Assembly (NCBI RefSeq): GCF_001017655.1
Contig: NZ_CP010904.1
Span: 1,020,001-1,052,000, forward strand
Direction: 5' to 3'
DNA: 32,000 bases
Source of the DNA: Kiritimatiella glycovorans
GTDB taxonomy: Bacteria; Verrucomicrobiota; Kiritimatiellia; Kiritimatiellales; Kiritimatiellaceae
The position numbers and the translations under genes were made by a program. Positions 3 to 14,903 of the stretch are shown here, piece by piece (positions within the stretch are counted from its first letter, which is position 1; every line of letters begins with the position of its first letter). A model generated the notes under the pieces. It was given only the letters and a program-made list of their open reading frames with translations. It was not told the origin of the DNA and searched no databases.

Positions 3-2930
3 ATGGATCGTCAGGTCAAGATTCGCGGCGTGCGCGTGGAACTGGGCGAGATTGAAAGTGTCATCCGGCGGCATCCGGGTGTGGATGATGCCGTTGTTCT
101 TTTGTGCGACGGGCTTCCGTATGGCTACATCACGGCGGCGGGGGATGCGGCGCCCGAGGATGCTGTGCTTCGCGCCTACCTCGTGGAGCATCTTCCGCGT
201 GTTCTGATCCCCGTGTCGTTTACGGCGCTGTCCGGCTTTCCCCGGACGCTGAGCGGGAAGGTGGACCGTAAGGCCCTGGAGCGCGGGGCGTTTGAGTCGG
301 TTGCGCAGGACGGTGCCGCAGAACGCGCGGGGCCGGCGCGAGCGGCGACAGAGGACGAGTTGCAGAGGCTGGATACGTGGAACCTCGAGGCGCAGCGGCC
401 CCGCGTGGAGGGAGAGACGGCGGACCGCCTGTTTGATATCGCATGCCTGATGTACCCGGACCGTGTGGCATTACGGCAGGAGGGACGCTCCCTGAGCTAT
501 CGTGAGCTGGGCCGCCTGGCGAACCGGATCGCGCTTCGGTTGCGCAGGGAGGGAATAGGGGCTGAGGATCCGGTACTGATCTGTGGACGGCGCTCCATCG
601 AAGCGCTCGTGGCTATGCTGGCGGTCGTGAAGGCCGGGGCGACGTATGTCCCGGTGGATGCCGGAGTACCGGAACGTCGCATGCGCGAGGCGTGCGGGGA
701 TTGCGGGGCGAGGGCCGTGTTCTGCCCGGAGGCGATCCGGAATGTTTTTGATGCGTGCGCGCTGTGGCTCGATCTGGACGATCCGGAAGGCGAGGGCCGC
801 GGGGAAGGTTCTCATCCGCCGGAGGTGAAGCCGGATGATCGTCGCCGCGCGTACATCATCTACACCTCCGGGTCAACCGGTCGTCCCAAGGGAGTCGAAA
901 TCGAACACCGCTCGCTCGTCAACCTCATCCGTTTTTACGTGGAGCGGCTTGAACTCACGGAAAAGGACCGGAGCACCATGCTGGCGAGCATCGCCTTCGA
1001 TGCCTCGGTTGCCGACGGGTGGCCATACCTGTGCTGCGGGGCGTCGGTGTACATTCCGCCCGACGAAAAGCTCCTCGATCCTCCCGCGCTCTTCCGGTGG
1101 ATCGGAGAGGAGGGGATCACGGTGTCCTTCGTGCCGACGGCGCTCGCGGAACGGCTTCTCGAATCGGATCTGTCACCGAAGACCTCGCTGCGGTATCTGC
1201 TGACGGGAGGCGACCGGCTTCGCGTCCGGCCCGCGGCGGGGTTGTCATTCGGGGTGATCAACACCTACGGCCCGACCGAGAACACGGTCGACAGCACGTG
1301 GGATGTCGTCCGCCCCGGCGGAGAAGAGGAGGGTCCGCCTCCGATCGGTCGTCCGATAGCCAATGTAGGGGTCTATGTGCTCGACCCGGACGGCGTGAGA
1401 GTCGCCCCCGGGGAAGAGGGTGAACTGGTGCTGGGGGGGCGGAACGTCGCGCGCGGCTACCTCGGGCGTGGAGACCTTACCCGTGAACGTTTTCCGGTCG
1501 ATCCGTTCTCCGGGGATGGGGCGCGGATGTACCGGACGGGCGACCGGGTACGGTTCCGGGACGACGGGCGACTCGATTTCCTCGGGCGCAAAGATGATCA
1601 GGTGCAGATCCGGGGCCATCGTGTAGAGCCGGGCGAGGTCGAGCATCTCCTGCGCGAAACCTCGGGAGTACGGGACGCTGCGGTGCGCCCGATGGAGGAG
1701 GACGGCGCGGTAACCGCGCTGGCGGCGTGGGTGGTGCCGGAACGACCCGGGGCCGCGGAAACCCTGACGGCGGCGCGTGAGGCGGCTCGTGCAGAACTTC
1801 CGGCCTACATGGTTCCCGCGGCCTGGGCGATGCTGGATGAACTGCCTCGGAACGCCTCGGGTAAAGTCGACCGTGAGGCGCTGCCCGCGCCGAACGTGTT
1901 CGAATCGGCGGGGGCGGGAGAGGTTCCGGCGACAGAGCGGGAACGCGAGCTGGCCGCGGTGTGGGAGGAAGTACTCGATGTGGGCCGCATCGGACGCGAC
2001 GACAATTTTTTTGATCTGGGCGGCCATTCGCTGATGGTGCTCAATCTCGTCTCGCGCGTGAAAGACGTGCTGGGGGTCCCGCTTTCCGTCGCCGCCGTGC
2101 TGCAGCGTCCCACCCTGCGCCGCATGGCGGAGGCGCTCGAAGATACCCCGGGCGGCGTCGGGCCGGGATCTTCTGCAAGGGTTCCCGTGCGCGAGGAGGG
2201 CAAAGATGAGCCCGTCTTCTGCGTGCCCGGTGCGGGGGGAGGGGTGAACCGGTTTCGCGGCATGGTCGAGCACTTGAAGCCGGGGCGGCCGTTTTACGGT
2301 CTGGAACCGCTGGGGCTGTCGCGCGCGTTGAATGAAGGGCCCATTGAGGATGTGGCAGAGGCGTTTCTGGACCTCGTGCGCGAGGTTCAGCCGCACGGGC
2401 CGTATTTTCTGGGAGGGTTCTCCTACGGCGGGCATGTCGCCTACACGATGGCACAACGGCTTCGGCGCGAGGGCGAGGAGGTCGCCCTGCTGTTTCTGAT
2501 CGAGGCCTACGGACCCGATGTTCGCTGCGGTCCTGCGGTGCGCGCCCTGAGGTATGCCGGCAATGTACTGCGACTCAAGCCGGCGGACAAGGTGCGTTAC
2601 GTAAAGGACAAAATTCGCTGGTTCCGGATGCTCATCAGAAACTGGTGGCACGTGAGCCGCCGGAGCCGGGATGAGGCCGACGAACTTTCGAGCATCCTGC
2701 GTGCGCATATGGAGGCCGCCGCGTGCTACGACCCGGAGCCGTACGATGGGCGGATGGTGCTGCTGCGTGCCGAGAGGCCGCCGAACAGTGCGCCGCTGCG
2801 CAGAGATGCGGGTTGGAAACGCATGGTCCGGGGCGGGATGGACGTGCACTTCGTCCCCGGCGATCATTACACCATCTTCGATGAAGGCCATCACGAGGCG
2901 ATGGCCGAGACGATCGGCCGCTACCTCTGA
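3..2930 (+). CDS. Non-ribosomal peptide synthetase, C-terminal part (5' end cut by window edge): A-domain tail / complete A domain / PCP / thioesterase
   Basis: The translation opens with A8-A10-like motifs ([13 protein letters not shown] ... SGKVDRKAL). A complete adenylation domain follows ([59 protein letters not shown]). Then come the carrier motif [11 protein letters not shown] and a C-terminal alpha/beta-hydrolase with GFSYGG (GxSxG). Stop at 2928-2930. Confidence 0.9.
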
Positions 2931-6178: not shown

Positions 6179-6200
6179 AGGAACTCCAATTAGTTTGAGT

Positions 6201-6420
6201 TAGAAACCTGAAACCTGAGACCTGAGTAAGAGGGGGATAGGGATTGAGTGGGAAACCTGAAACCTGAGACCTGAGTAAGAGGGGGATAGGGATTGAGTGG
6301 GAAACCTGAAACCTGAGACCTGAGTAAGAGTGGGGATAGGGATTGAGTGGGAAACCTGAAACCTGAGACCTGAGTAAGTGGAGATTGAGTGGGAAACCTG
6401 AGACCTGAATCCCGTGCGGG
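6201..6420. repeat. Tandem repeat array, about 4.5 units (49/49/50/42/30 bp) of GGGAAACCTGAAACCTGAGACCTGAGTAAG-AGGGGGATAGGGATTGAGT
   Basis: Read directly: units start at 6201, 6250, 6299, 6349 and 6391 (last one partial). Each has an internal 7-nt periodicity (GAAACCT GAAACCT GAGACCT GAGTAAG). The track ORF 6190..6456 is just this repeat translated. Confidence 0.95.
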
Positions 6421-6452
6421 CTTACTGAGTAAAGAAGACTGAACTTGGGGGG

Positions 6453-6800
6453 TCATGTTTTTCCGCCTTTGGCGTTTTTTGACATCGTGACAAATATTGA
6501 AATCAATTCGTTAAGCTCTTCTTCGATGGGGTGGCAGCGGTCTTCCGATATTCCGCACCCGCGCACGAGCAATTCAATCCAGAGCAGTGACTCGTCGGCT
6601 TCCTGAGTGCAGATCTCAATTTTTGAAATAAATTCAGCTTTGGTTCTGGCTCGCGAGGCCTCCCTGTAATTCGCCGCTATGGATGTTCCGGAACGAAGAA
6701 TCTGTTTCCCGGCCACCTGAATATCGTATCTTGAAGATCGAGACAAAGAGAGATACAGCCTGATAACATGTACGGCGAGGTTCGTCGTTCGCGTGCGCAT
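6453..6800 (-). CDS. Four-helix-bundle protein, 23S rRNA intervening-sequence protein family (Avd-like fold family)
   Basis: QILRSGTSIAANYREASRARTKAEFISKIEICTQEADESLLWIELL matches my recollection of the hallmark helix 2-3 pattern of the PF05635/TIGR02436-type family. ATG at 6800; an upstream in-frame GTG at 6821 is the track start. The gene is clearly AT-richer than its neighbours. Confidence 0.8.
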   Translation of the reverse strand: MRTRTTNLAVHVIRLYLSLSRSSRYDIQVAGKQILRSGTSIAANYREASRARTKAEFISKIEICTQEADESLLWIELLVRGCGISEDRCHPIEEELNELISIFVTMSKNAKGGKT

Positions 6801-6921
6801 CGTGCTTTTTGCGGCTCCCACATTCGTCTCCAGTGTGAATGGCGGAGACCCGCATCCCGCGCGGCTCCCATTGAACCCGCGTTAGGTTTTTTTTATACCT
6901 CCGTGTACAATCGTTATAATT

Positions 6922-7050
6922 CTTACTCAGGTTTCAGGTCTCAGGTTTCAGGTTTCCCACTCAAGCTTTCTTACTCAGGTTTCAGGTCTCAGGTTTCAGG
7001 TTTCCCACTCAAGCTCTCTTACTCAGGTTTCAGGTCTCAGGTTTCCCACT
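6922..7050. repeat. Tandem repeat array, about 3 units (48/48/33 bp) of CTTACTCAGGTTTCAGGTCTCAGGTTTCAGGTTTCCCACTCAAGCT; inverted partner of the 6201-6420 array
   Basis: Read directly: units start at 6922, 6970 and 7018. The core is the reverse complement of the left-array core plus one extra GTTTCAG heptamer. A C10 run (7055-7064) and the guaA stop follow. Confidence 0.95.
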
Positions 7051-11018: not shown

Positions 11019-11171
11019 GGTTTTCTACCTCTCCGTTAGATGGGCCGTCGGCAGCGGAAAGTCGCCGCCCCTCAAATGTCGAACCGGCATCATCAGGGGA
11101 GGGATAGGGGGCTGTCAATGAATTCACCTTTTTTTTCGGGGTTTTTCAGCCGCGAAGGCCCTGGAGGGCGT

Positions 11172-11501
11172 ATGGATCATATGGATAACATGGAACACTT
11201 CCGGTGCCGCCGCTGCGGCCAATGCTGCCGACGCCGCGGCTACGTGTGGCTCGAAACGCACGATGTCGAACGCCTCGCGGAATTTCTCGGCATCGACACC
11301 GACACGTTCCTCGACCGGTTTACCCGCATCGCCGGCCGGGCACGCGATCTCAGCCTCATCGAAAACGACGACGGAAGCTGCGTGTTCCTGAAAAACGGAC
11401 GCTGCGAAGTCTACCAGGCCCGCCCACTCCAGTGCCGCACGTTCCCCTGGGCCTGGGGACAGGACGATCCCGAATGCCCCGGACTGGCGGAGTTGAGGTG
11501 A
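11172..11501 (+). CDS. YkgJ-family cysteine-cluster protein (UPF0153, putative Zn/Fe-binding)
   Basis: CRRCGQCC (CxxCxxCC) near the N-terminus, then CVFL...GRCEVYQARPLQCRTFP. GGAGG lies 4 nt before the ATG at 11172; the track start at 11040 looks over-extended. Confidence 0.7.
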   Translation: MDHMDNMEHFRCRRCGQCCRRRGYVWLETHDVERLAEFLGIDTDTFLDRFTRIAGRARDLSLIENDDGSCVFLKNGRCEVYQARPLQCRTFPWAWGQDDPECPGLAELR

Positions 11502-11504
11502 GGG

Positions 11505-12495
11505 GATCAGGGGGAGATCGTGGCAGTCGGGGGGGAGTCGTGGCAATCGGGGGAAATGTCGTTCCTACGAGCGAAGCGTTTCCACGAGGCGCGTAGCGCC
11601 GTTTCCACGAGCGAAGCGTGGAAGATCGTGTCAACGGCCCTCGCGGGCCTCGTGGCAGTCGGGGGGAGAGTCGTGGCAATCGGGGGAAATGTCGTTCCTA
11701 CGAGCGAAGCGTTTCCACGAGGCGCGTAGCGCCGTTTCCACGAGCGAAGCGTGGAAGATCGTGTCAACGGCCCTGACGGGCCTCGTGGCAGTCGGGGGGA
11801 GAGTCGTGGCAATCGGGGGAAATGTCGTTCCTACGAGGCCGAAGGCCGTTCCTGCGAGCGCAGCGTTTCCCCGAGGCGCGTAGCGCCGTTTCCACGTTCC
11901 CTACGAGGCCGAAGGCCGTTTCCACGTCCCCCCCGAGCGCAGCGTGGAAGATCGTGTCAACGGCCCTTGCGGGCCTCGTGGCAATCGGGGAGATCGTGGC
12001 AATCGGGGGAGATCGTGGCAGTCGGGGGAAATGTCGTTCCTACGAGGCCGAAGGCCGTTTCCCACGAGGCGCGCAGCGCCGTTTCCACGTTCCCTGCGAG
12101 GCCGAAGGCCGTTCCGACGAGGCGCGTAGCGCCGTTGCCTCGAGCGAAGCGTTTTGACGAGGCGCGCAGCGCCGTTTCCACGAGCAGGGGAGAGTCGTGT
12201 CAACGGCCCTGACGGGCCTCGTAGCAATCGGGGGAATGTCGTTCCTACGAGGCCGAAGGCCGTTTCCCCCGAGGCGCGTAGCGCCGTTTCCACGTTCCCT
12301 ACGAGGCCGAAGGCCGTTCCGACGAGGCGCGTAGCGCCGTTGCCTCGAGCGAAGCGTTTTGACGAGGCGCGCAGCGCCGTTTCCACGTCCCCCCCGAGCG
12401 CAGCGTTTCCACGAGGCGCGTAGCGCCGTTTCCACGTTCCCCACGAGGCCGAAGGCCGTTGCCACGTTCCCCCCCGAGGCGCGCAGCGCCGTTTC
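11505..12495 (+). repeat. Complex ~1-kb array: five higher-order copies (141/133/193/243/275 bp), each with iteron-like heads, 3-10 GNA-triloop mini-hairpin modules and (copies I-IV) a GGCCC-N4-GGGCC tail hairpin
   Basis: Read directly. Copies start at 11511, 11652, 11785, 11978 and 12221. The modules are ACGAG-[GGCGC GTA/GCA GCGCC | GGCC GAA GGCC | GC GAA/GCA GC]-GTTTCC, about 27 in total, all with GNA on the plus strand. ORFs across the region on both strands give repetitive low-complexity translations. Confidence 0.9.
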
Positions 12496-12566
12496 TAATT
12501 GAACCCGACGGCAGGATCGCGCATGCTGTACCTCCTGCCGATGCAAATCCAACCATGGAGACGGAT

Positions 12567-12998
12567 ATGGCGATTATGGAGACGAAGGAGATCATGGAGG
12601 TGCTCCCGCACCGCTATCCCTTTCTGCTCGTCGACCGCGTGGTCGAGTGCGACGACGAAAAGCGGATCGTCGGGATCAAGAATCTGACGATCAACGAGCC
12701 CTATTTCCAGGGCCACTTCCCCGGCGAGCCGGTGATGCCGGGCGTCCTGCAGCTCGAAGCCATGGCCCAGGTGGGCGGCATCCTGCTCAACAAGCTCGGC
12801 TCGCGCGCGGGCCAGATCGCCTACTTTACCTCGATCGAGCGCGCGAAATTCCGGCGCATGGTCGTGCCGGGCGACCAGATGCGCATCGAGGTCACCTTCC
12901 TGAAACATCGTCTCAAGATGGCTAAAGTGGAGGGCCGCGTGCTTGTCGACGGAGAACGGGTGTGCGAGGCGGAACTGATGTTCACGATCGGGGCGTAA
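12567..12998 (+). CDS. fabZ: 3-hydroxyacyl-ACP dehydratase
   Basis: EIMEVLPHRYPFLLVDRV ... NEPYFQGHFPGEPVMPGVLQLEAMAQ is canonical FabZ. The ATG at 12567 has GGAG 6 nt upstream (alternatives 12555 and 12576); the track start at 12459 runs into the repeat array. Confidence 0.93.
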   Translation: MAIMETKEIMEVLPHRYPFLLVDRVVECDDEKRIVGIKNLTINEPYFQGHFPGEPVMPGVLQLEAMAQVGGILLNKLGSRAGQIAYFTSIERAKFRRMVVPGDQMRIEVTFLKHRLKMAKVEGRVLVDGERVCEAELMFTIGA

Positions 12999-13002
12999 GG
13001 GC

Positions 13003-13791
13003 ATGAGCGGTATTCATCCCAGCGCCATCGTGGCCGAGGAGGCCCGAATCGGCAGCGGTGTGGAGATCGGCCCCTGTGCCGTGATCGGGCCGGAGGCTGC
13101 ACTGGACGAGGGCGTCCGCGTGCTGGCGCACGCGGTGGTCGACGGACGGACGGAAATCGGGCCGCAATGCGTGATCCATCCCTTCGCCCGCGTCGGCGGG
13201 CAGACGCAGGATCTCAAATTCAAGGGCGGGAAACCGGGCGTGCGGGTCGGCGCGCGTACCACGATCCGCGAATACGTCACCATCAACGCCGCGACCAACG
13301 ACAACGAGTTCACCGAGGTGGGCGAGGACTGTCTGATCATGGCCTACAATCACATCGCTCACTGCTGCCGCCTGGGCCGGGGCGTGATCCTGACCAATGC
13401 GTGCCAGGTCGCGGGGCATGTGGAGATCGAGGACTACGCGGTGGTCGAGGGGATGTGCGGAATCGTCCAGTTCACCCGCATCGGACGCATGGCGTTTGTC
13501 GGCGGCATGTCCAAGGTGACCAAGGACGTGCCGCCGTTCATGCTCGGAACCGGCAACCCCTTCGAAGTGCGCGGGATCAACCGCGTGGGTATGGAGCGAC
13601 GCGGCGTCAGCGAAGCGGTGCGCCGCGAACTCAAGGAGGCCTTCCGGATGCTGTACCGATCCGATCGCTCCGTATCCCGGGCGGTCGAGGAGATCCGTGC
13701 ACAAGGGTCAGACGGCGAGGAGATCCGGCACCTGCTCGCATTCATCGAGTCCTCGAAAAAGGGCATTACCCGTAACGGTCCCGGATCATGA
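13003..13791 (+). CDS. lpxA: Acyl-ACP--UDP-N-acetylglucosamine O-acyltransferase
   Basis: 262 aa. Left-handed beta-helix hexapeptide repeats (IHPSAIVAEEARIGSGVEIGPCAVIGPEA...), QDLKFKG, and a C-terminal helical domain. Conserved fabZ-lpxA synteny. Confidence 0.9.
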   Translation: MSGIHPSAIVAEEARIGSGVEIGPCAVIGPEAALDEGVRVLAHAVVDGRTEIGPQCVIHPFARVGGQTQDLKFKGGKPGVRVGARTTIREYVTINAATNDNEFTEVGEDCLIMAYNHIAHCCRLGRGVILTNACQVAGHVEIEDYAVVEGMCGIVQFTRIGRMAFVGGMSKVTKDVPPFMLGTGNPFEVRGINRVGMERRGVSEAVRRELKEAFRMLYRSDRSVSRAVEEIRAQGSDGEEIRHLLAFIESSKKGITRNGPGS

Positions 13792-14903
13792 CCCGCGAAC
13801 TCAGCGTCGAACTCGGCGAACGCGGCTACCCCATCCGCATCGGACCCGGGCTGCTCGAAAACCTCGGCCCGGAGGTCGCCGCCACCGGTCTTAAAGGGCG
13901 CGGCCTGGTCCTGACGGACGAAACGGTTTTCCGCCGCTATGGGGAGCGTTGCGTCGCCTCGCTGGCCGGGGTCTGCGAGCCCCGGGTGCTGAGCGTGCCG
14001 GCGGGCGAAAAGAGCAAATGTCGTGACACGCTCTTCGAGGTCTACGACGCGATGCTCGAACACGGCATGGACCGCGGGAGTTTTCTCGTCGCCCTCGGCG
14101 GCGGAGTCGTCGGCGATCTCGGCGGCTACGCGGCCGCGTCGTATCTGCGCGGCATACCGTTCGTGCAGGTTCCGACGACCCTGCTCGCGATGGTGGACAG
14201 CTCCGTCGGCGGGAAAACCGGCATCAATCTTCCGCAGGGCAAGAACCTGGTCGGCGCTTTTCACCAGCCGCGGCTCGTGCTGGCCGATACGGAAACGCTG
14301 AAGTCGCTCGACGCCCGTCCGTTCCGCGCGGGCATGGCCGAAGTGGTCAAATACGGCGTCATCCGCGATCGGGCCCTGTTTGAGCTGTTGGAACGGAGCG
14401 CGAAGGATTTCGCGGCGGGCGTGTGCCCGGACATGGATCTCTCCGGCGAAGAGGGAAGTCGGCTGGGCGAGGTCATTGAGCAGTGCTGCCGGATCAAGGC
14501 GGACGTGGTGGCGGAAGACGAGCGCGAAGGCGGGCTGCGCGCGATCCTCAATTTCGGCCACACCCTCGCGCACGCCCTGGAGAATTCCGGCGGGTACTCG
14601 GACTGGCTCCATGGCGAGGCGGTCGCGGTCGGCATGGTCTACGCCGCCCGCCTGTCGACGCAGCTGCACGGCCTGCCCGCCGAGGAGGCGGGGCGGATCG
14701 AAGGTCTGTTGCAGGCGCTCGGCCTCCCGGTTCGCACGCCGGGCGCCGACTGGTCTGTGTTGCGGGACATCATGGGTCGGGACAAGAAAGTCCGCGACGG
14801 CCGGGTGCGGTTTGTCCTCGCCGACCGCATCGGGCACGCCGAACCCGGTTTCGAGGCCCCCGGCGAGACGCTCGAATCGGTCTGGCGGGAAATGGCGCGC
14901 TAG
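13788..14903 (+). CDS. aroB: 3-dehydroquinate synthase
   Basis: GGGVVGDLGGYAAASYLRGIPFVQVPTTLLAMVDSSVGGKTGINLPQGKNLVGAFHQP and NFGHTLAHALE...HGEAVAVGM are AroB signatures. ATGA overlap with the lpxA stop. Confidence 0.93.
   Translation: MTRELSVELGERGYPIRIGPGLLENLGPEVAATGLKGRGLVLTDETVFRRYGERCVASLAGVCEPRVLSVPAGEKSKCRDTLFEVYDAMLEHGMDRGSFLVALGGGVVGDLGGYAAASYLRGIPFVQVPTTLLAMVDSSVGGKTGINLPQGKNLVGAFHQPRLVLADTETLKSLDARPFRAGMAEVVKYGVIRDRALFELLERSAKDFAAGVCPDMDLSGEEGSRLGEVIEQCCRIKADVVAEDEREGGLRAILNFGHTLAHALENSGGYSDWLHGEAVAVGMVYAARLSTQLHGLPAEEAGRIEGLLQALGLPVRTPGADWSVLRDIMGRDKKVRDGRVRFVLADRIGHAEPGFEAPGETLESVWREMAR

What the first reader, a model, noticed from the sequence alone, without database searches (positions are those of the whole stretch)
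11505..12495. ~1-kb strand-asymmetric array of about 27 GC-clamped GNA-triloop mini-hairpins of the d(GCGAAGC) type
The whole gap between the YkgJ-like gene and fabZ is built from 17-23-nt modules of the form ACGAG-[stem-GNA-stem]-GTTTCC. The stems and loops are GGCGC-GTA/GCA-GCGCC, GGCC-GAA-GGCC and GC-GAA/GCA-GC. By manual count there are 3, 3, 5, 6 and 10 modules in five successive higher-order copies (starts 11511, 11652, 11785, 11978, 12221; the first two are exactly 133 bp apart). Every module has the purine-rich GNA loop on the plus strand. GCGAAGC and its GNA variants are documented as exceptionally thermostable, nuclease-resistant DNA mini-hairpins, known from ssDNA-phage origins. Copies I-IV end in a GGCCC-N4-GGGCC hairpin whose stem is invariant while the loop varies (TCGC, TGAC, TTGC, TGAC). 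Loop identity also varies among otherwise identical modules, which hints at selection on structure rather than sequence. The plus strand is the transcribed strand of both flanking genes, so the array could act as a structured RNA leader or 3'UTR, or as ssDNA hairpins (REP/RAYT-like, origin-like, or recombination substrates). It matches no repeat class I can name.
Basis: partly seen in the sequence, partly recalled or inferred. Interest (0 to 1): 0.8.

Follow-up and report, generated by a model that had tools for sequence, protein, structure and literature searches.

The report
Species-specific dispersed arrays of mini-hairpin repeats
The 1-kb gap before fabZ in Kiritimatiella glycovorans is one of at least seven arrays of tiny GC-clamped hairpin repeats found only in this genome, a new REP/BIME-like repeat family whose hairpins are kept intact although its function is unproven.

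Summary
Window 11505-12495 holds 27 forward modules of the form CGA-[GC, GGCC or GGCGC]-GNA-[complement]-GT, in five higher-order copies of 3, 3, 5, 6 and 10. One correction: the four "GGCCC-N4-GGGCC" hairpins are the same module inverted (GNNA loop on the minus strand), and the G-rich "heads" are inverted spacer units. The array is therefore a mosaic of 27 forward and 4 inverted modules.

The window comes from Kiritimatiella glycovorans, whose genome was assembled from 265x PacBio reads, so an assembly artefact is unlikely. Three relatives keep the same gene order but have only 61-71 bp between the YkgJ-like gene and fabZ. The array is thus a lineage-specific insertion.

Translating the array recovers six "hypothetical proteins" of the same genome. 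None is encoded in the window. All are frame-hopping translations of the same modules, so at least six sister arrays exist elsewhere. No other organism, metagenome, plasmid or phage has the family, and Rfam has no match.

Recent copies differ mainly at loop-N positions and never at stem, flank or loop G/A positions. Stem classes differ by compensatory pair flips.

Best reading: a new, species-restricted REP/BIME-like hairpin repeat family that grows by local duplication. A specific function, such as ops-like non-template DNA hairpins or a structured RNA, remains speculative.

The parts
11505..12495 (.). Whole repeat array: 31 hairpin modules (27 forward, 4 inverted) in five higher-order copies
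11518..11649 (+). Higher-order copy I. Inverted-spacer head 11518-11555, centre ATGTCG 11556-11561, 3 forward modules at 11568-11619 (GC-GAA, GGCGC-GTA, GC-GAA), tail, and inverted module 11636-11649 (- strand loop GCGA).
11650..11782 (+). Higher-order copy II. It is 133 bp from copy I with 3 differences, 2 of them in the inverted-module loop. It has 3 forward modules at 11701-11752 and an inverted module at 11769-11782 (- strand loop GTCA).
11783..11975 (+). Higher-order copy III. 5 forward modules at 11834-11945 and an inverted module at 11962-11975 (- strand loop GCAA).
11976..12218 (+). Higher-order copy IV. Head of three 19-nt units, 6 forward modules at 12043-12175, and an inverted module at 12205-12218 (- strand loop GTCA).
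12219..12495 (+). Higher-order copy V. Short head and 10 forward modules at 12248-12492. Positions 12234-12387 repeat 12029-12182 at about 97-98% identity.
11582..11655 (.). REPIN-like long imperfect hairpin formed by a forward GGCGC module and the inverted GGCCC module, with a GC-GAA-GC module at the apex. Equivalent doublets lie within the folded segments 11710-11793, 11896-11986 and 12150-12229.
   Evidence: DNA folding, z -2.8 to -4.7 on + strand
12478..12499 (+). Last module, GGCGC-GCA-GCGCC followed by GTTTCTAATT. It is the only hairpin in the array that passes the intrinsic-terminator scan.
12496..12566 (+). Unique spacer of about 71 nt retained between the array and the fabZ start. It is the same size as the entire YkgJ-fabZ gap in relatives. 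A Shine-Dalgarno GGAG lies at 12557-12560.
11040..11501 (+). CxxCxxCC (YkgJ-like) gene. The real start is probably near 11169, since relatives are 112-116 aa. The stop is at 11499-11501, 17 nt before the first head unit (11518).
12567..12998 (+). fabZ. The start is set by homology to relatives and by the SD. lpxA follows at 13003-13791 and aroB at 13788-14903.

Best explanation
The array is one member of a previously undescribed family of interspersed hairpin repeats. So far the family is restricted to Kiritimatiella glycovorans and is closest in kind to REP/BIME/REPIN elements and intercistronic minisatellites.

The unit is an oriented 'tagged' mini-palindrome, CGA-stem-GN(N)A-stem'-GT, joined by short C/T-rich spacers (TTNCCNCGA). 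Units are assembled into composite higher-order blocks. Each block has an inverted part (one hairpin plus 4-6 spacers), a centre, and a forward run of 3-10 hairpins.

Shown here:
- The element was inserted just after the stop codon of the YkgJ-like gene, into what is a spacer of about 65 bp in relatives.
- It then grew by recent local duplications of whole blocks; copies are 96-98% identical.
- The same modules and block architecture occur at six or more other places in the genome.
- The hairpin-defining positions are held constant while loop-N and mid-spacer positions change.

Inferred:
- The hairpin with its CGA/GT tags is the entity that is propagated or selected. It probably forms when the DNA is single-stranded, where C(GNA)G hairpins are exceptionally stable on the forward strand only. 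It may also form in the transcript.
- Arrays spread to new intergenic sites by an unidentified transposition or recombination step, and expand or contract by slippage or unequal exchange.
- At this locus the array is most likely transcribed as the 3' UTR of the YkgJ-like gene. It is tolerated because fabZ keeps its native upstream region of about 71 nt.
- Any effect on expression (3'-end protection, pausing, reduced read-through) is a side effect of the REP/BIME type rather than a dedicated device.
For: - Exact anatomy of the modules.
- Recent block duplications.
- Forward and inverted modules form REPIN-like doublets.
- Source organism and long-read assembly.
- Three relatives keep surA-like/CxxCxxCC/fabZ/lpxA/aroB but have a module-free gap of 61-71 bp.
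- The translated array hits only six K. glycovorans 'hypothetical proteins' among 1.84 billion representatives: L21SP4_00612, 01247, 02129, 02319, 02323 and 02326. None is encoded in the window; best tblastn identity is 36-46%.
- Each of the six mixes all three reading frames of the same modules. For example RGAQRR, RRAAP and EARSAV all come from GGCGC-GNA-GCGCC. Each carries 17-34 recognisable modules.
- None of the six has a RefSeq WP_ accession.
- Constraint pattern: 0 of 11 recent differences fall in stems, tags or loop G/A (P about 4e-4), and 5 of 11 fall in loop-N (P about 4e-5). Pair flips between stem classes are compensatory.
- The position, downstream of a coding region between unidirectional genes, is the typical REP position (PMC3733652).
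- The genome is reported to carry 75 transposase genes (PMC5148204).
Against:
- The family fails several defining REP features. The hairpins are 7-14 nt rather than 20-40 bp. There is no GTAG or CGTC tag. It forms a few long arrays rather than many singlets or doublets, and no isolated module lies in the other 31 kb of the window.
- The strict conservation of hairpin positions could reflect a dedicated function rather than propagation constraints.
- Transcription of the array is not shown.
- The sister arrays are known only through ORF translations, not DNA. Their exact size, context and orientation are therefore unknown.
Confidence: 0.6

Rival explanations
1. Strand-specific single-stranded-DNA signals. 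The forward modules would be extruded on the non-template strand inside the transcription bubble, acting like ops elements that pause RNA polymerase and recruit a specialised NusG paralogue (RfaH or UpxY). Alternatively they would form on the lagging-strand template as SSB-excluding or priming signals. Here they would control expression of the lipid A genes fabZ-lpxA.
For: - 20 of 27 modules contain GCGNAGC.
- Known ops non-template hairpins have '5'-GCG-AGC stems'. The B. fragilis opsE is CTGCGAAGCATA and opsA is CCGCGTAGCGCA (PMC11685472).
- The GGCGC-GTA module shares 10 contiguous nt (CGCGTAGCGC) with opsA, by direct comparison of the sequences.
- The + strand is the non-template strand of both flanking genes.
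- Hairpins of 7-13 nt fit a transcription bubble.
- Every module ends in C|G. In the 18 GGCC and GGCGC modules a G lies 10 nt upstream, which matches the G-10 Y-1 G+1 pause pattern by inspection.
- DNA mini-hairpins are far more stable than their RNA versions, and the complementary strand does not form them.
- CCGAAGG occurs in RSF1010 ssiA, and GNA mini-hairpins occur in N4 vRNAP promoters.
Against: - ops sites are single elements in promoter-proximal leaders. Here there are 27 in a row, 4 more on the other strand, and at least six further arrays.
- The array lies after a gene, not after a mapped promoter, and no promoter-like site is found inside it.
- No NusG paralogue is known for this phylum, and none could be searched for.
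- The resemblance rests on a 7-10 nt GC-rich motif.
Confidence: 0.1
2. A functional structured RNA. The array would be transcribed with the YkgJ-like gene and act at the RNA level, as a 3'-end stabiliser, a processing platform, a multi-hairpin attenuator of read-through into fabZ, or a multivalent decoy for an RNA-binding protein in the manner of CsrB.
For: - The forward orientation matches the sense strand of both neighbours.
- The + strand RNA folds better than shuffles, with z = -5.0.
- Hairpins are followed by GUUU, and the last one passes a terminator scan.
- The inverted modules carry GCGA and GCAA on the - strand, which are GNRA tetraloops if that strand is transcribed.
- REPs are thought to act largely as RNA elements.
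Against: - No Rfam family matches.
- In equilibrium folding most mini-hairpins are out-competed by long-range pairings, and the 2-bp GC-GAA-GC hairpins have essentially zero probability.
- The - strand folds even better, with z = -8.5, so folding does not pick out a strand.
- GNA triloops with C:G closure are the DNA optimum, not an RNA one.
- There is no GGA or other known protein-binding loop motif.
- Copy number varies from 3 to 10 per block, and the element is absent from all relatives.
Confidence: 0.15
3. A purely local minisatellite, amplified in situ from the ancestral terminator hairpin of the YkgJ-like gene by replication slippage, with no spread between loci.
For: - The last module resembles an intrinsic terminator.
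- One relative, L017, has a hairpin plus a T-run in the same gap.
- The block copies are young.
Against: The same modules, heads, tails and inverted hairpins occur in six other annotated ORFs spread from locus tag 00612 to 02326. A single-locus origin without spread cannot explain the family.
Confidence: 0.05
4. The repeats encode real Arg/Gly/Pro-rich repeat proteins, as the GenBank annotation of the sister arrays implies. UniRef names one of them 'Collagen triple helix repeat'.
For: Long ORFs of 153-170 aa cross the array on both strands. GenBank annotates 218-422 aa ORFs on the sister arrays.
Against: - Module spacings of 17, 21, 22, 23 and 32 nt are not multiples of 3.
- Each 'protein' contains the three different frame translations of the same DNA module.
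- There are no Pfam hits.
- The ORFs have no RefSeq accession.
- No homologue exists outside this genome among 1.84 billion representatives.
Confidence: 0.02
5. Assembly artefact, or a replication origin or iteron region.
For: Repeats of this kind are collapse-prone in short-read assemblies. The spacer GTTTCCACG loosely resembles a DnaA box or a half parS site.
Against: - The assembly used 265x PacBio long reads spanning far more than 1 kb, and sister arrays exist.
- No 9-mer within 2 mismatches of TTATCCACA lies in the array, against 44 elsewhere in the window.
- GC skew does not change sign here.
- The conserved part of the spacer is CGA/GTT, not CCAC.
Confidence: 0.02

Closest known systems
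REP / BIME / REPIN elements (E. coli, Pseudomonas; GTAG- and CGTC-tagged palindromes of Di Nocera et al. 2013)
   Same: - GC-rich extragenic palindromes with short invariant unpaired tags next to the stem.
- Present at multiple loci of one genome, and species-specific in sequence.
- Placed downstream of a coding region between co-oriented genes.
- Mosaic arrangement with other short motifs.
- Forward and inverted units that pair into longer REPIN-like hairpins.
   Different: - The hairpins are much smaller, with 2-5 bp stems and 3-4 nt loops, against 20-40 bp.
- The tags are CGA and GT rather than GTAG or CGTC.
- Orientation is 27:4 rather than alternating.
- The family is organised as a few arrays of 0.65-1.3 kb with about 17-34 modules each, rather than hundreds of singlets or doublets.
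- No RAYT has been identified.
DNA mini-hairpins d(GCGNAGC), d(GCGNNAGC), d(CCGAAGG) (Hirao et al.; review PMC13037366)
   Same: All 31 hairpins have a C:G closing pair, a G...A loop (GNA or GNNA), and GC/GC or CC/GG as the two inner pairs. This is exactly the combination shown to give extraordinarily stable, nuclease-resistant DNA hairpins. The complementary strand and the RNA versions are much weaker.
   Different: The known natural examples are single copies in ssDNA-phage origins, RSF1010 ssiA and N4 promoters. No multi-copy genomic array has been described in the literature searched. Stability was not measured here.
ops / opsX non-template-strand DNA hairpins recognised by NusG paralogues (RfaH, Bacteroides UpxY)
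   Same: They share a GCG-N(N)-AGC core on the non-template strand, upstream of envelope-polysaccharide or lipid genes. The GGCGC-GTA module shares CGCGTAGCGC with B. fragilis opsA, and the GC-GAA module contains the GCGAAGC of opsE.
   Different: ops is a single 12-nt element in a promoter-proximal leader, coupled to a defined pause and a cognate regulator gene. Here there are dozens of copies, some inverted, at many loci, with no known regulator.
MIRU-type intercistronic minisatellites of mycobacteria, and minisatellites embedded in MITEs (e.g. P. gingivalis, PMC4596501)
   Same: Tandem, variable-copy repeats sit in intergenic spacers inside operon-like clusters, co-oriented with transcription, at several loci of one genome. 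This comparison rests on my own knowledge of MIRUs. The MITE paper is known only from the listing.
   Different: There is no sequence relation. The units here are shorter, hairpin-centred and hierarchically organised. No overlapping small ORFs link the flanking genes.

Membership tests
REP/BIME (repetitive extragenic palindromes) | Palindromic unit of about 20-40 bp | tested here: not met
   The hairpins are 7, 11, 13 or 14 nt long, or 12-19 nt with the invariant CGA/GT tags. The definition is from PMC3733652.
REP/BIME (repetitive extragenic palindromes) | Unpaired GTAG or CGTC tag at one end of the palindrome | tested here: not met
   The invariant flanks are 5' CGA and 3' GT (27/27 each). 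GTAG occurs only inside the GTA loop plus stem.
REP/BIME (repetitive extragenic palindromes) | Many copies dispersed in extragenic regions of one genome | tested here: inconclusive
   At least six further arrays, with 17-34 recognisable modules each, are inferred from ORF translations at locus tags 00612, 01247, 02129, 02319, 02323 and 02326.
REP/BIME (repetitive extragenic palindromes) | Units in alternating or inverted orientation that form larger hairpins (BIME, REPIN) | tested here: inconclusive
   There are 27 forward and 4 inverted modules. Four forward/inverted doublets fold into hairpins of about 75 nt, with z from -2.8 to -4.7. The orientation is not regularly alternating.
REP/BIME (repetitive extragenic palindromes) | Cognate RAYT (Y1/HUH transposase) in the genome | not testable with these tools
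   No such gene lies in the 32-kb window. The rest of the genome is withheld from the searchable collections.
DNA mini-hairpin motif (GCGNAGC type) | GNA or GNNA loop closed by C:G, with GC/GC or CC/GG inner pairs | tested here: met
   All 31 hairpins comply. The rules are taken from PMC13037366.
DNA mini-hairpin motif (GCGNAGC type) | Extraordinary thermal and nuclease stability as single-stranded DNA | not testable with these tools
   The review (PMC13037366) states that established thermodynamic prediction parameters cannot explain the stability of these hairpins. In one search the 2-bp hairpins get almost no predicted probability. Melting experiments are needed.
ops / NusG-paralogue recruitment site | GCG-N(N)-AGC hairpin on the non-template strand | tested here: met
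   20 of 27 forward modules contain GCGNAGC on the sense strand of the flanking genes.
ops / NusG-paralogue recruitment site | Single element in the promoter-proximal leader of an operon | tested here: not met
   There are 27 forward copies plus 4 inverted, located after a coding gene. No promoter-like site lies in or just before the array. At least six further arrays exist.
ops / NusG-paralogue recruitment site | Cognate specialised NusG paralogue encoded in the genome | not testable with these tools
   None lies in the window, and no literature was found for this phylum.
CRISPR array | Identical repeats of about 23-47 bp separated by unique spacers of similar length | tested here: not met
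   The units are 12-19 nt, separated by repeated spacers of 7-17 nt. Three stem classes are mixed.
Any Rfam RNA family | Covariance-model match at the gathering threshold | tested here: not met
   There were 0 matches at gathering score in the window. Only two sub-threshold chance hits appeared at E up to 10.
Chromosomal origin / iteron region | Cluster of DnaA boxes and a GC-skew switch | tested here: not met
   No 9-mer within 2 mismatches of TTATCCACA lies in the array. Cumulative GC skew rises through the region.

The most novel reading that the evidence does not exclude
The modules may really be extruded in vivo as single-stranded DNA mini-hairpins and be used by the cell as strand-specific signals. 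Examples would be ops-like non-template-strand hairpins that pause RNA polymerase or load a specialised elongation factor before envelope genes, or SSB-excluding or priming signals on the lagging-strand template. K. glycovorans would then be the first organism known to deploy C(GNA)G mini-hairpins in bulk (at least 170 copies). The loop-N hypervariability would be a footprint of that extrusion.
Probability: 0.12. Interest if true: 0.8.

Novelty: new variant of a known kind. Interest (0 to 1): 0.45.

Why it matters
If the reading is right, this is a new family of bacterial interspersed repeats in a poorly sampled phylum (Kiritimatiellota). It is built from the smallest and most stable DNA hairpin known.

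According to the review (PMC13037366), natural occurrences of GCGNAGC-type mini-hairpins are rarer than expected and limited to single copies at phage or plasmid origins and promoters. A genome carrying well over a hundred of them, all obeying the physical rules for stability on one strand only, gives a natural system for asking three questions. Do such hairpins form in vivo? What do they do to replication, transcription and mutation? How is a hairpin repeat family born and spread?

There is also a practical point. Six GenBank 'hypothetical proteins' of this genome, one labelled collagen-like in UniRef, are very probably artefacts of these arrays.

Tried and rejected
- Known RNA: Rfam at gathering and at permissive thresholds found nothing, and there are no tRNA or tmRNA genes.
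- Coding: Pfam on the array ORFs found nothing, and the periods are not multiples of 3.
- Origin or iterons: there are no DnaA-like boxes, GATC is not enriched, and GC skew does not switch.
- Promoters and terminators inside the array: none, apart from the last module as a weak terminator.
- Species-representative genomes: the 22-nt module pattern gave 14 isolated chance hits in unrelated taxa and no arrays. A sister array must contain this pattern (P0121 reads ...RGAQRRCHVPPP...), yet no Kiritimatiella hit was returned. The source genome is therefore evidently not in that collection, and the scan says nothing about the rest of this genome.
- Metagenomes: the 25-nt module pattern gave 0 hits. 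The spacer-gap-spacer pattern gave 33 hits, all unrelated small tandem duplications or coding repeats.
- Viral contigs gave 1 chance hit. Plasmids and phages gave no blastn match.
- Exact-protein look-ups for LpxA, P0121 and P0122, meant to fetch genomic context, returned 'not on record'.
- A protein search with the minus-strand ORF found nothing.
- Whole-array thermodynamic folding could not discriminate RNA from DNA or one strand from the other. Both strands beat shuffles, and most mini-hairpins are not favoured by nearest-neighbour rules.
- Alignment of the residual spacer with the relatives' spacers was too divergent to show a founder sequence.
- Literature searches found no prior description of these repeats and no NusG paralogues in this phylum.
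Full report
**1. What is in the sequence**

Reading 11300-12700 and parsing it with an explicit grammar gives exactly 27 forward modules between 11568 and 12492. The grammar is CGA, a G/C stem of 2-6 nt, a GN(N)A loop, the exact complement of the stem, then GT. The modules are grouped 3, 3, 5, 6 and 10.
- Nine have the stem GC, seven GGCC and eleven GGCGC.
- The loops are GAA (13), GTA (7) and GCA (7).
- CGA directly 5' of the stem and GT directly 3' are invariant (27/27). The middle of the spacer varies.

The enrichment is not chance.
- The GGCGC module has 11 matches against 0 expected, and the GGCC module 7 against 0.1.
- For C(GNA)G hairpins with stems of at least 4 bp, 18 lie in this kilobase on the + strand against 5 in the remaining 31 kb. 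None lie in it on the - strand.

Tandem Repeats Finder and the repeat finder confirm the higher-order structure. Copies I and II are 133 bp apart at 98% identity, and a 205-bp period links copies IV and V at 96-97%.

**2. A correction to the anatomy**

The G-rich 'head' units (TCGTGGCAA, TCGGGGGAA) are reverse complements of the forward spacer unit TTNCCNCGA. Inside the array that unit occurs 11 times on + and 10 times on -.

Each higher-order copy is therefore an inverted block (one hairpin plus 4-6 spacer units), a centre (ATGTCG) and a forward block of 3-10 hairpins. At each of the four junctions a forward module and the inverted module can pair into an imperfect hairpin of about 75 nt, with a GC-GAA-GC module at the apex in copies I and II. 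As DNA these give z from -2.8 to -4.7. This is a mosaic of the BIME/REPIN type, not a purely one-stranded array.

**3. Source and reliability**

LpxA encoded at 13003-13791 is 100% identical to the Kiritimatiella glycovorans protein on a 2,949,723-bp contig. The next best hit in 5.8 billion proteins is 63% identical.

That genome was assembled from PacBio RSII libraries of more than 10 kb at 265x and checked with MiSeq reads (PMC5148204). Collapse or invention of a 1-kb array is therefore unlikely.

The flanking genes are housekeeping:
- carB, guaA, carA and a SurA-like PPIase on the minus strand;
- a CxxCxxCC (YkgJ-like) gene, then the array, then fabZ, lpxA, aroB, dprA and topA on the plus strand.

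**4. The array is a lineage-specific insertion**

Three of the closest available relatives (58-63% LpxA identity) keep the order SurA-like(-)/CxxCxxCC(+)/fabZ/lpxA/aroB. Their CxxCxxCC-fabZ gap is only 61-71 bp, lower in GC and without any module.

In K. glycovorans a unique stretch of about 71 nt with a GGAG Shine-Dalgarno remains between the last module and the fabZ ATG at 12567. The first head unit (11518) begins 17 nt after the YkgJ stop codon. So roughly 990 bp were added directly behind the YkgJ-like gene, leaving the native fabZ upstream region in place.

**5. The family is dispersed in this genome and found nowhere else**

The DNA scans gave nothing related.
- Species-representative genomes gave 14 isolated chance hits in unrelated taxa.
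- The 25-nt metagenome pattern gave 0 hits.
- The spacer-based metagenome pattern gave 33 unrelated small duplications.
- Viral contigs, plasmids and phages gave nothing.

The informative step was to use the translated array as bait.
- The ORF at 11751-12212 hit two K. glycovorans 'hypothetical proteins'.
- An exhaustive HMMER search of 1.84 billion representative proteins with one of them found six proteins, all from K. glycovorans: L21SP4_00612, 01247, 02129, 02319, 02323 and 02326. They are 218-422 aa long.
- None is encoded in the window; the best tblastn identity is 36-46%.
- Each contains the peptides produced by all three reading frames of the same DNA modules:
  - RGAQRR/RGAKRR, RRAAP/RRVAP/RREAP and EARSAV for GGCGC-GNA-GCGCC;
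  - RGRRP, RPKAV and EAEGR for GGCC-GAA-GGCC;
  - RAKR/RAQR, SEA and ERSV for GC-GNA-GC;
  - GPxGPRG, RPxxASW and TAxxGLV for the inverted hairpin.
- Each also shows the head (WQSG...) and tail (SEAWKIV) sequences, and carries 17-34 recognisable modules.
- None of the six has a RefSeq accession.

These are spurious ORFs laid over sister arrays. The family therefore occupies at least five separate regions of the chromosome, with well over 170 modules. A sister array must contain the pattern scanned, yet no Kiritimatiella hit was returned. The source genome is therefore evidently withheld from that collection, and one search is silent about it.

**6. Evidence that the hairpin is the constrained unit**

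- All 31 hairpins are perfect, 121 pairs with none broken.
- The closing pair is always C:G. Pairs 2 and 3 counted from the loop flip G:C to C:G between stem classes, which are compensatory changes.
- The position just outside every stem is an A opposite a G.
- The young paralogous copies give 349 aligned positions and 11 differences. None falls in the 50% of positions that make up stems, the CGA/GT tags and the loop G/A (P about 4e-4). Five fall in the 4% that are loop-N (P about 4e-5, or about 4e-4 if the adjacent CG-to-GA change is counted once).
- These comparisons share copy I, so they are not fully independent.
- In the sister arrays the back-inferred inverted loops add GTAA and GACA, and the GGCGC class adds a GAA loop. 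G and A stay fixed while N runs free.

An excess of changes in loops over presumably neutral spacers suggests that the hairpins are actually extruded. I mark this as inference.

**7. DNA or RNA?**

The published rules for 'mini-hairpin DNA' are these (PMC13037366):
- only GNA among the 64 triloops works;
- GNNA tetraloops are accepted;
- the inner pairs must be GC/GC or CC/GG, not CG/CG or GG/CC;
- d(GCGNAGC) melts at 70-76 C, against 39 C for r(GCGAAAGC) and 33 C for d(GCTTTTGC).

All 31 hairpins obey these rules on the strand that carries the CGA...GT tags. That fits a single-stranded-DNA structure better than an RNA one.

Nearest-neighbour folding cannot settle the matter.
- Both strands fold better than shuffles as RNA, with z = -5.0 (+) and -8.5 (-).
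- In the equilibrium ensemble most mini-hairpins are displaced by long-range pairings between inverted and forward blocks. The 2-bp hairpins have near-zero probability.
- According to the review, such parameters do not capture GNA stability.

**8. What it most likely is and does**

The best-supported account is a new, species-restricted family of interspersed hairpin repeats of the REP/BIME kind. The oriented tagged mini-palindromes are assembled into composite blocks, seeded at several intergenic sites, and expanded locally by duplication of whole blocks.
- The position behind a coding region between co-oriented genes is the classical REP position (PMC3733652).
- The genome is reported to be rich in transposases, with 75.
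- I infer that the array is transcribed as the 3' UTR of the YkgJ-like gene, because no promoter-like site lies inside it. Only the last module looks like a terminator.
- I infer that any effect on expression is of the general REP/BIME sort.
- How new arrays are seeded is unknown.

**9. Rivals**

(a) ops-like signals. Known non-template-strand hairpins that recruit NusG paralogues have GCG-N(N)-AGC cores: E. coli ops GGCGGTAGCGTG (recalled from my own knowledge, not retrieved in any call), and B. fragilis opsE CTGCGAAGCATA and opsA CCGCGTAGCGCA (PMC11685472).
- 20 of 27 modules contain GCGNAGC on the non-template strand, just upstream of lipid A genes.
- The GGCGC-GTA module shares 10 nt with opsA.
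- This is a striking lead. However, ops is a single element in a promoter-proximal leader with a cognate regulator. Dozens of copies, inverted copies and seven or more arrays do not fit, and the regulator could not be sought.

(b) A functional structured RNA is possible but unsupported. There is no family match, no strand preference in folding, the loops are DNA-optimal, and copy number is variable.

(c) In-situ amplification without spread is contradicted by the sister arrays.

(d) Coding, an assembly artefact and an origin of replication are rejected.

**10. Comparison and novelty**

The family works like REP/BIME elements but fails their membership criteria. Its size is 7-14 nt against 20-40 bp, its tags are CGA/GT against GTAG/CGTC, and it forms a few long arrays against many small clusters. 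A RAYT could not be tested.

It matches the DNA mini-hairpin motif at the sequence level. No paper in the searchable library describes these repeats.

I rate it a new variant of a known kind, of moderate interest. It is unusual for the minimal, physically special hairpin, for the array size and for its restriction to one genome. No demonstrated function goes beyond what repeat families generally show.

Noticed in passing
window 6195-7045: This is a low-GC (about 51%) island between carB and guaA. It holds a 122-aa ORF at 6453-6821 (-) that matches PF05635, '23S rRNA-intervening sequence protein' (the Avd / four-helix-bundle family), at E 3.7e-15. The ORF is flanked by inverted arrays of a 48-49-nt repeat built from GAAACCT/GAGACCT heptads: 6195-6409 on +, and 6920-7045 as the reverse complement. 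It looks like a small inserted cassette with composite terminal inverted repeats.
   Followed up: partly
K. glycovorans proteins P0121-P0126 (AKJ65552, AKJ63881, AKJ65545, AKJ65549, AKJ65360, AKJ64495; not in the window): Six GenBank 'hypothetical proteins' are frame-hopping translations of sister hairpin arrays. One of them is named 'Collagen triple helix repeat (20 copies)' in UniRef. They are almost certainly annotation artefacts. Three of them (locus tags 02319, 02323, 02326) lie within eight genes of each other.
   Followed up: yes
window 11480-11520: The YkgJ-like protein ends ...PGLAELR*, about four residues earlier than its relatives (...PGLDALKHDPE*...PALDALKKGAD*). The array begins within a few nucleotides of the stop codon. 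The insertion may have replaced the original 3' end of the gene and supplied the present stop codon.
   Followed up: partly
window 11896-11935, 12084-12100, 12289-12305, 12382-12398, 12431-12447, 12461-12478: 'Double spacers' such as GTTTCCACG|TTCCCTACGA read exactly like two adjacent spacers from which A-hairpin-G has been removed (CGA[hairpin]GTT becoming CGTT). They could be footprints of precise hairpin loss, or empty insertion sites.
   Followed up: no
window 3-2930: A stand-alone NRPS-like protein (AMP-binding, AMP-binding_C, PP-binding and thioesterase domains; 975 aa, cut by the window edge) lies next to carB.
   Followed up: no
window 11171-11194: A short 9-nt tandem repeat (TATGGATAA, 2.7 copies) sits at the probable true start of the YkgJ-like gene and encodes MDHMDNMEH. 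The 153-aa ORF from 11040 is about 40 residues longer than its relatives of 112-116 aa.
   Followed up: no
tools: genome-contig scan and the look-up of encoding contigs: The source genome appears to be withheld from the searchable DNA collections. Exact look-ups fail for proteins that the protein database lists on the 2.95-Mb contig. A pattern that must occur in sister arrays returned no Kiritimatiella hit. Negative DNA scans therefore do not speak to the rest of this genome.
   Followed up: yes
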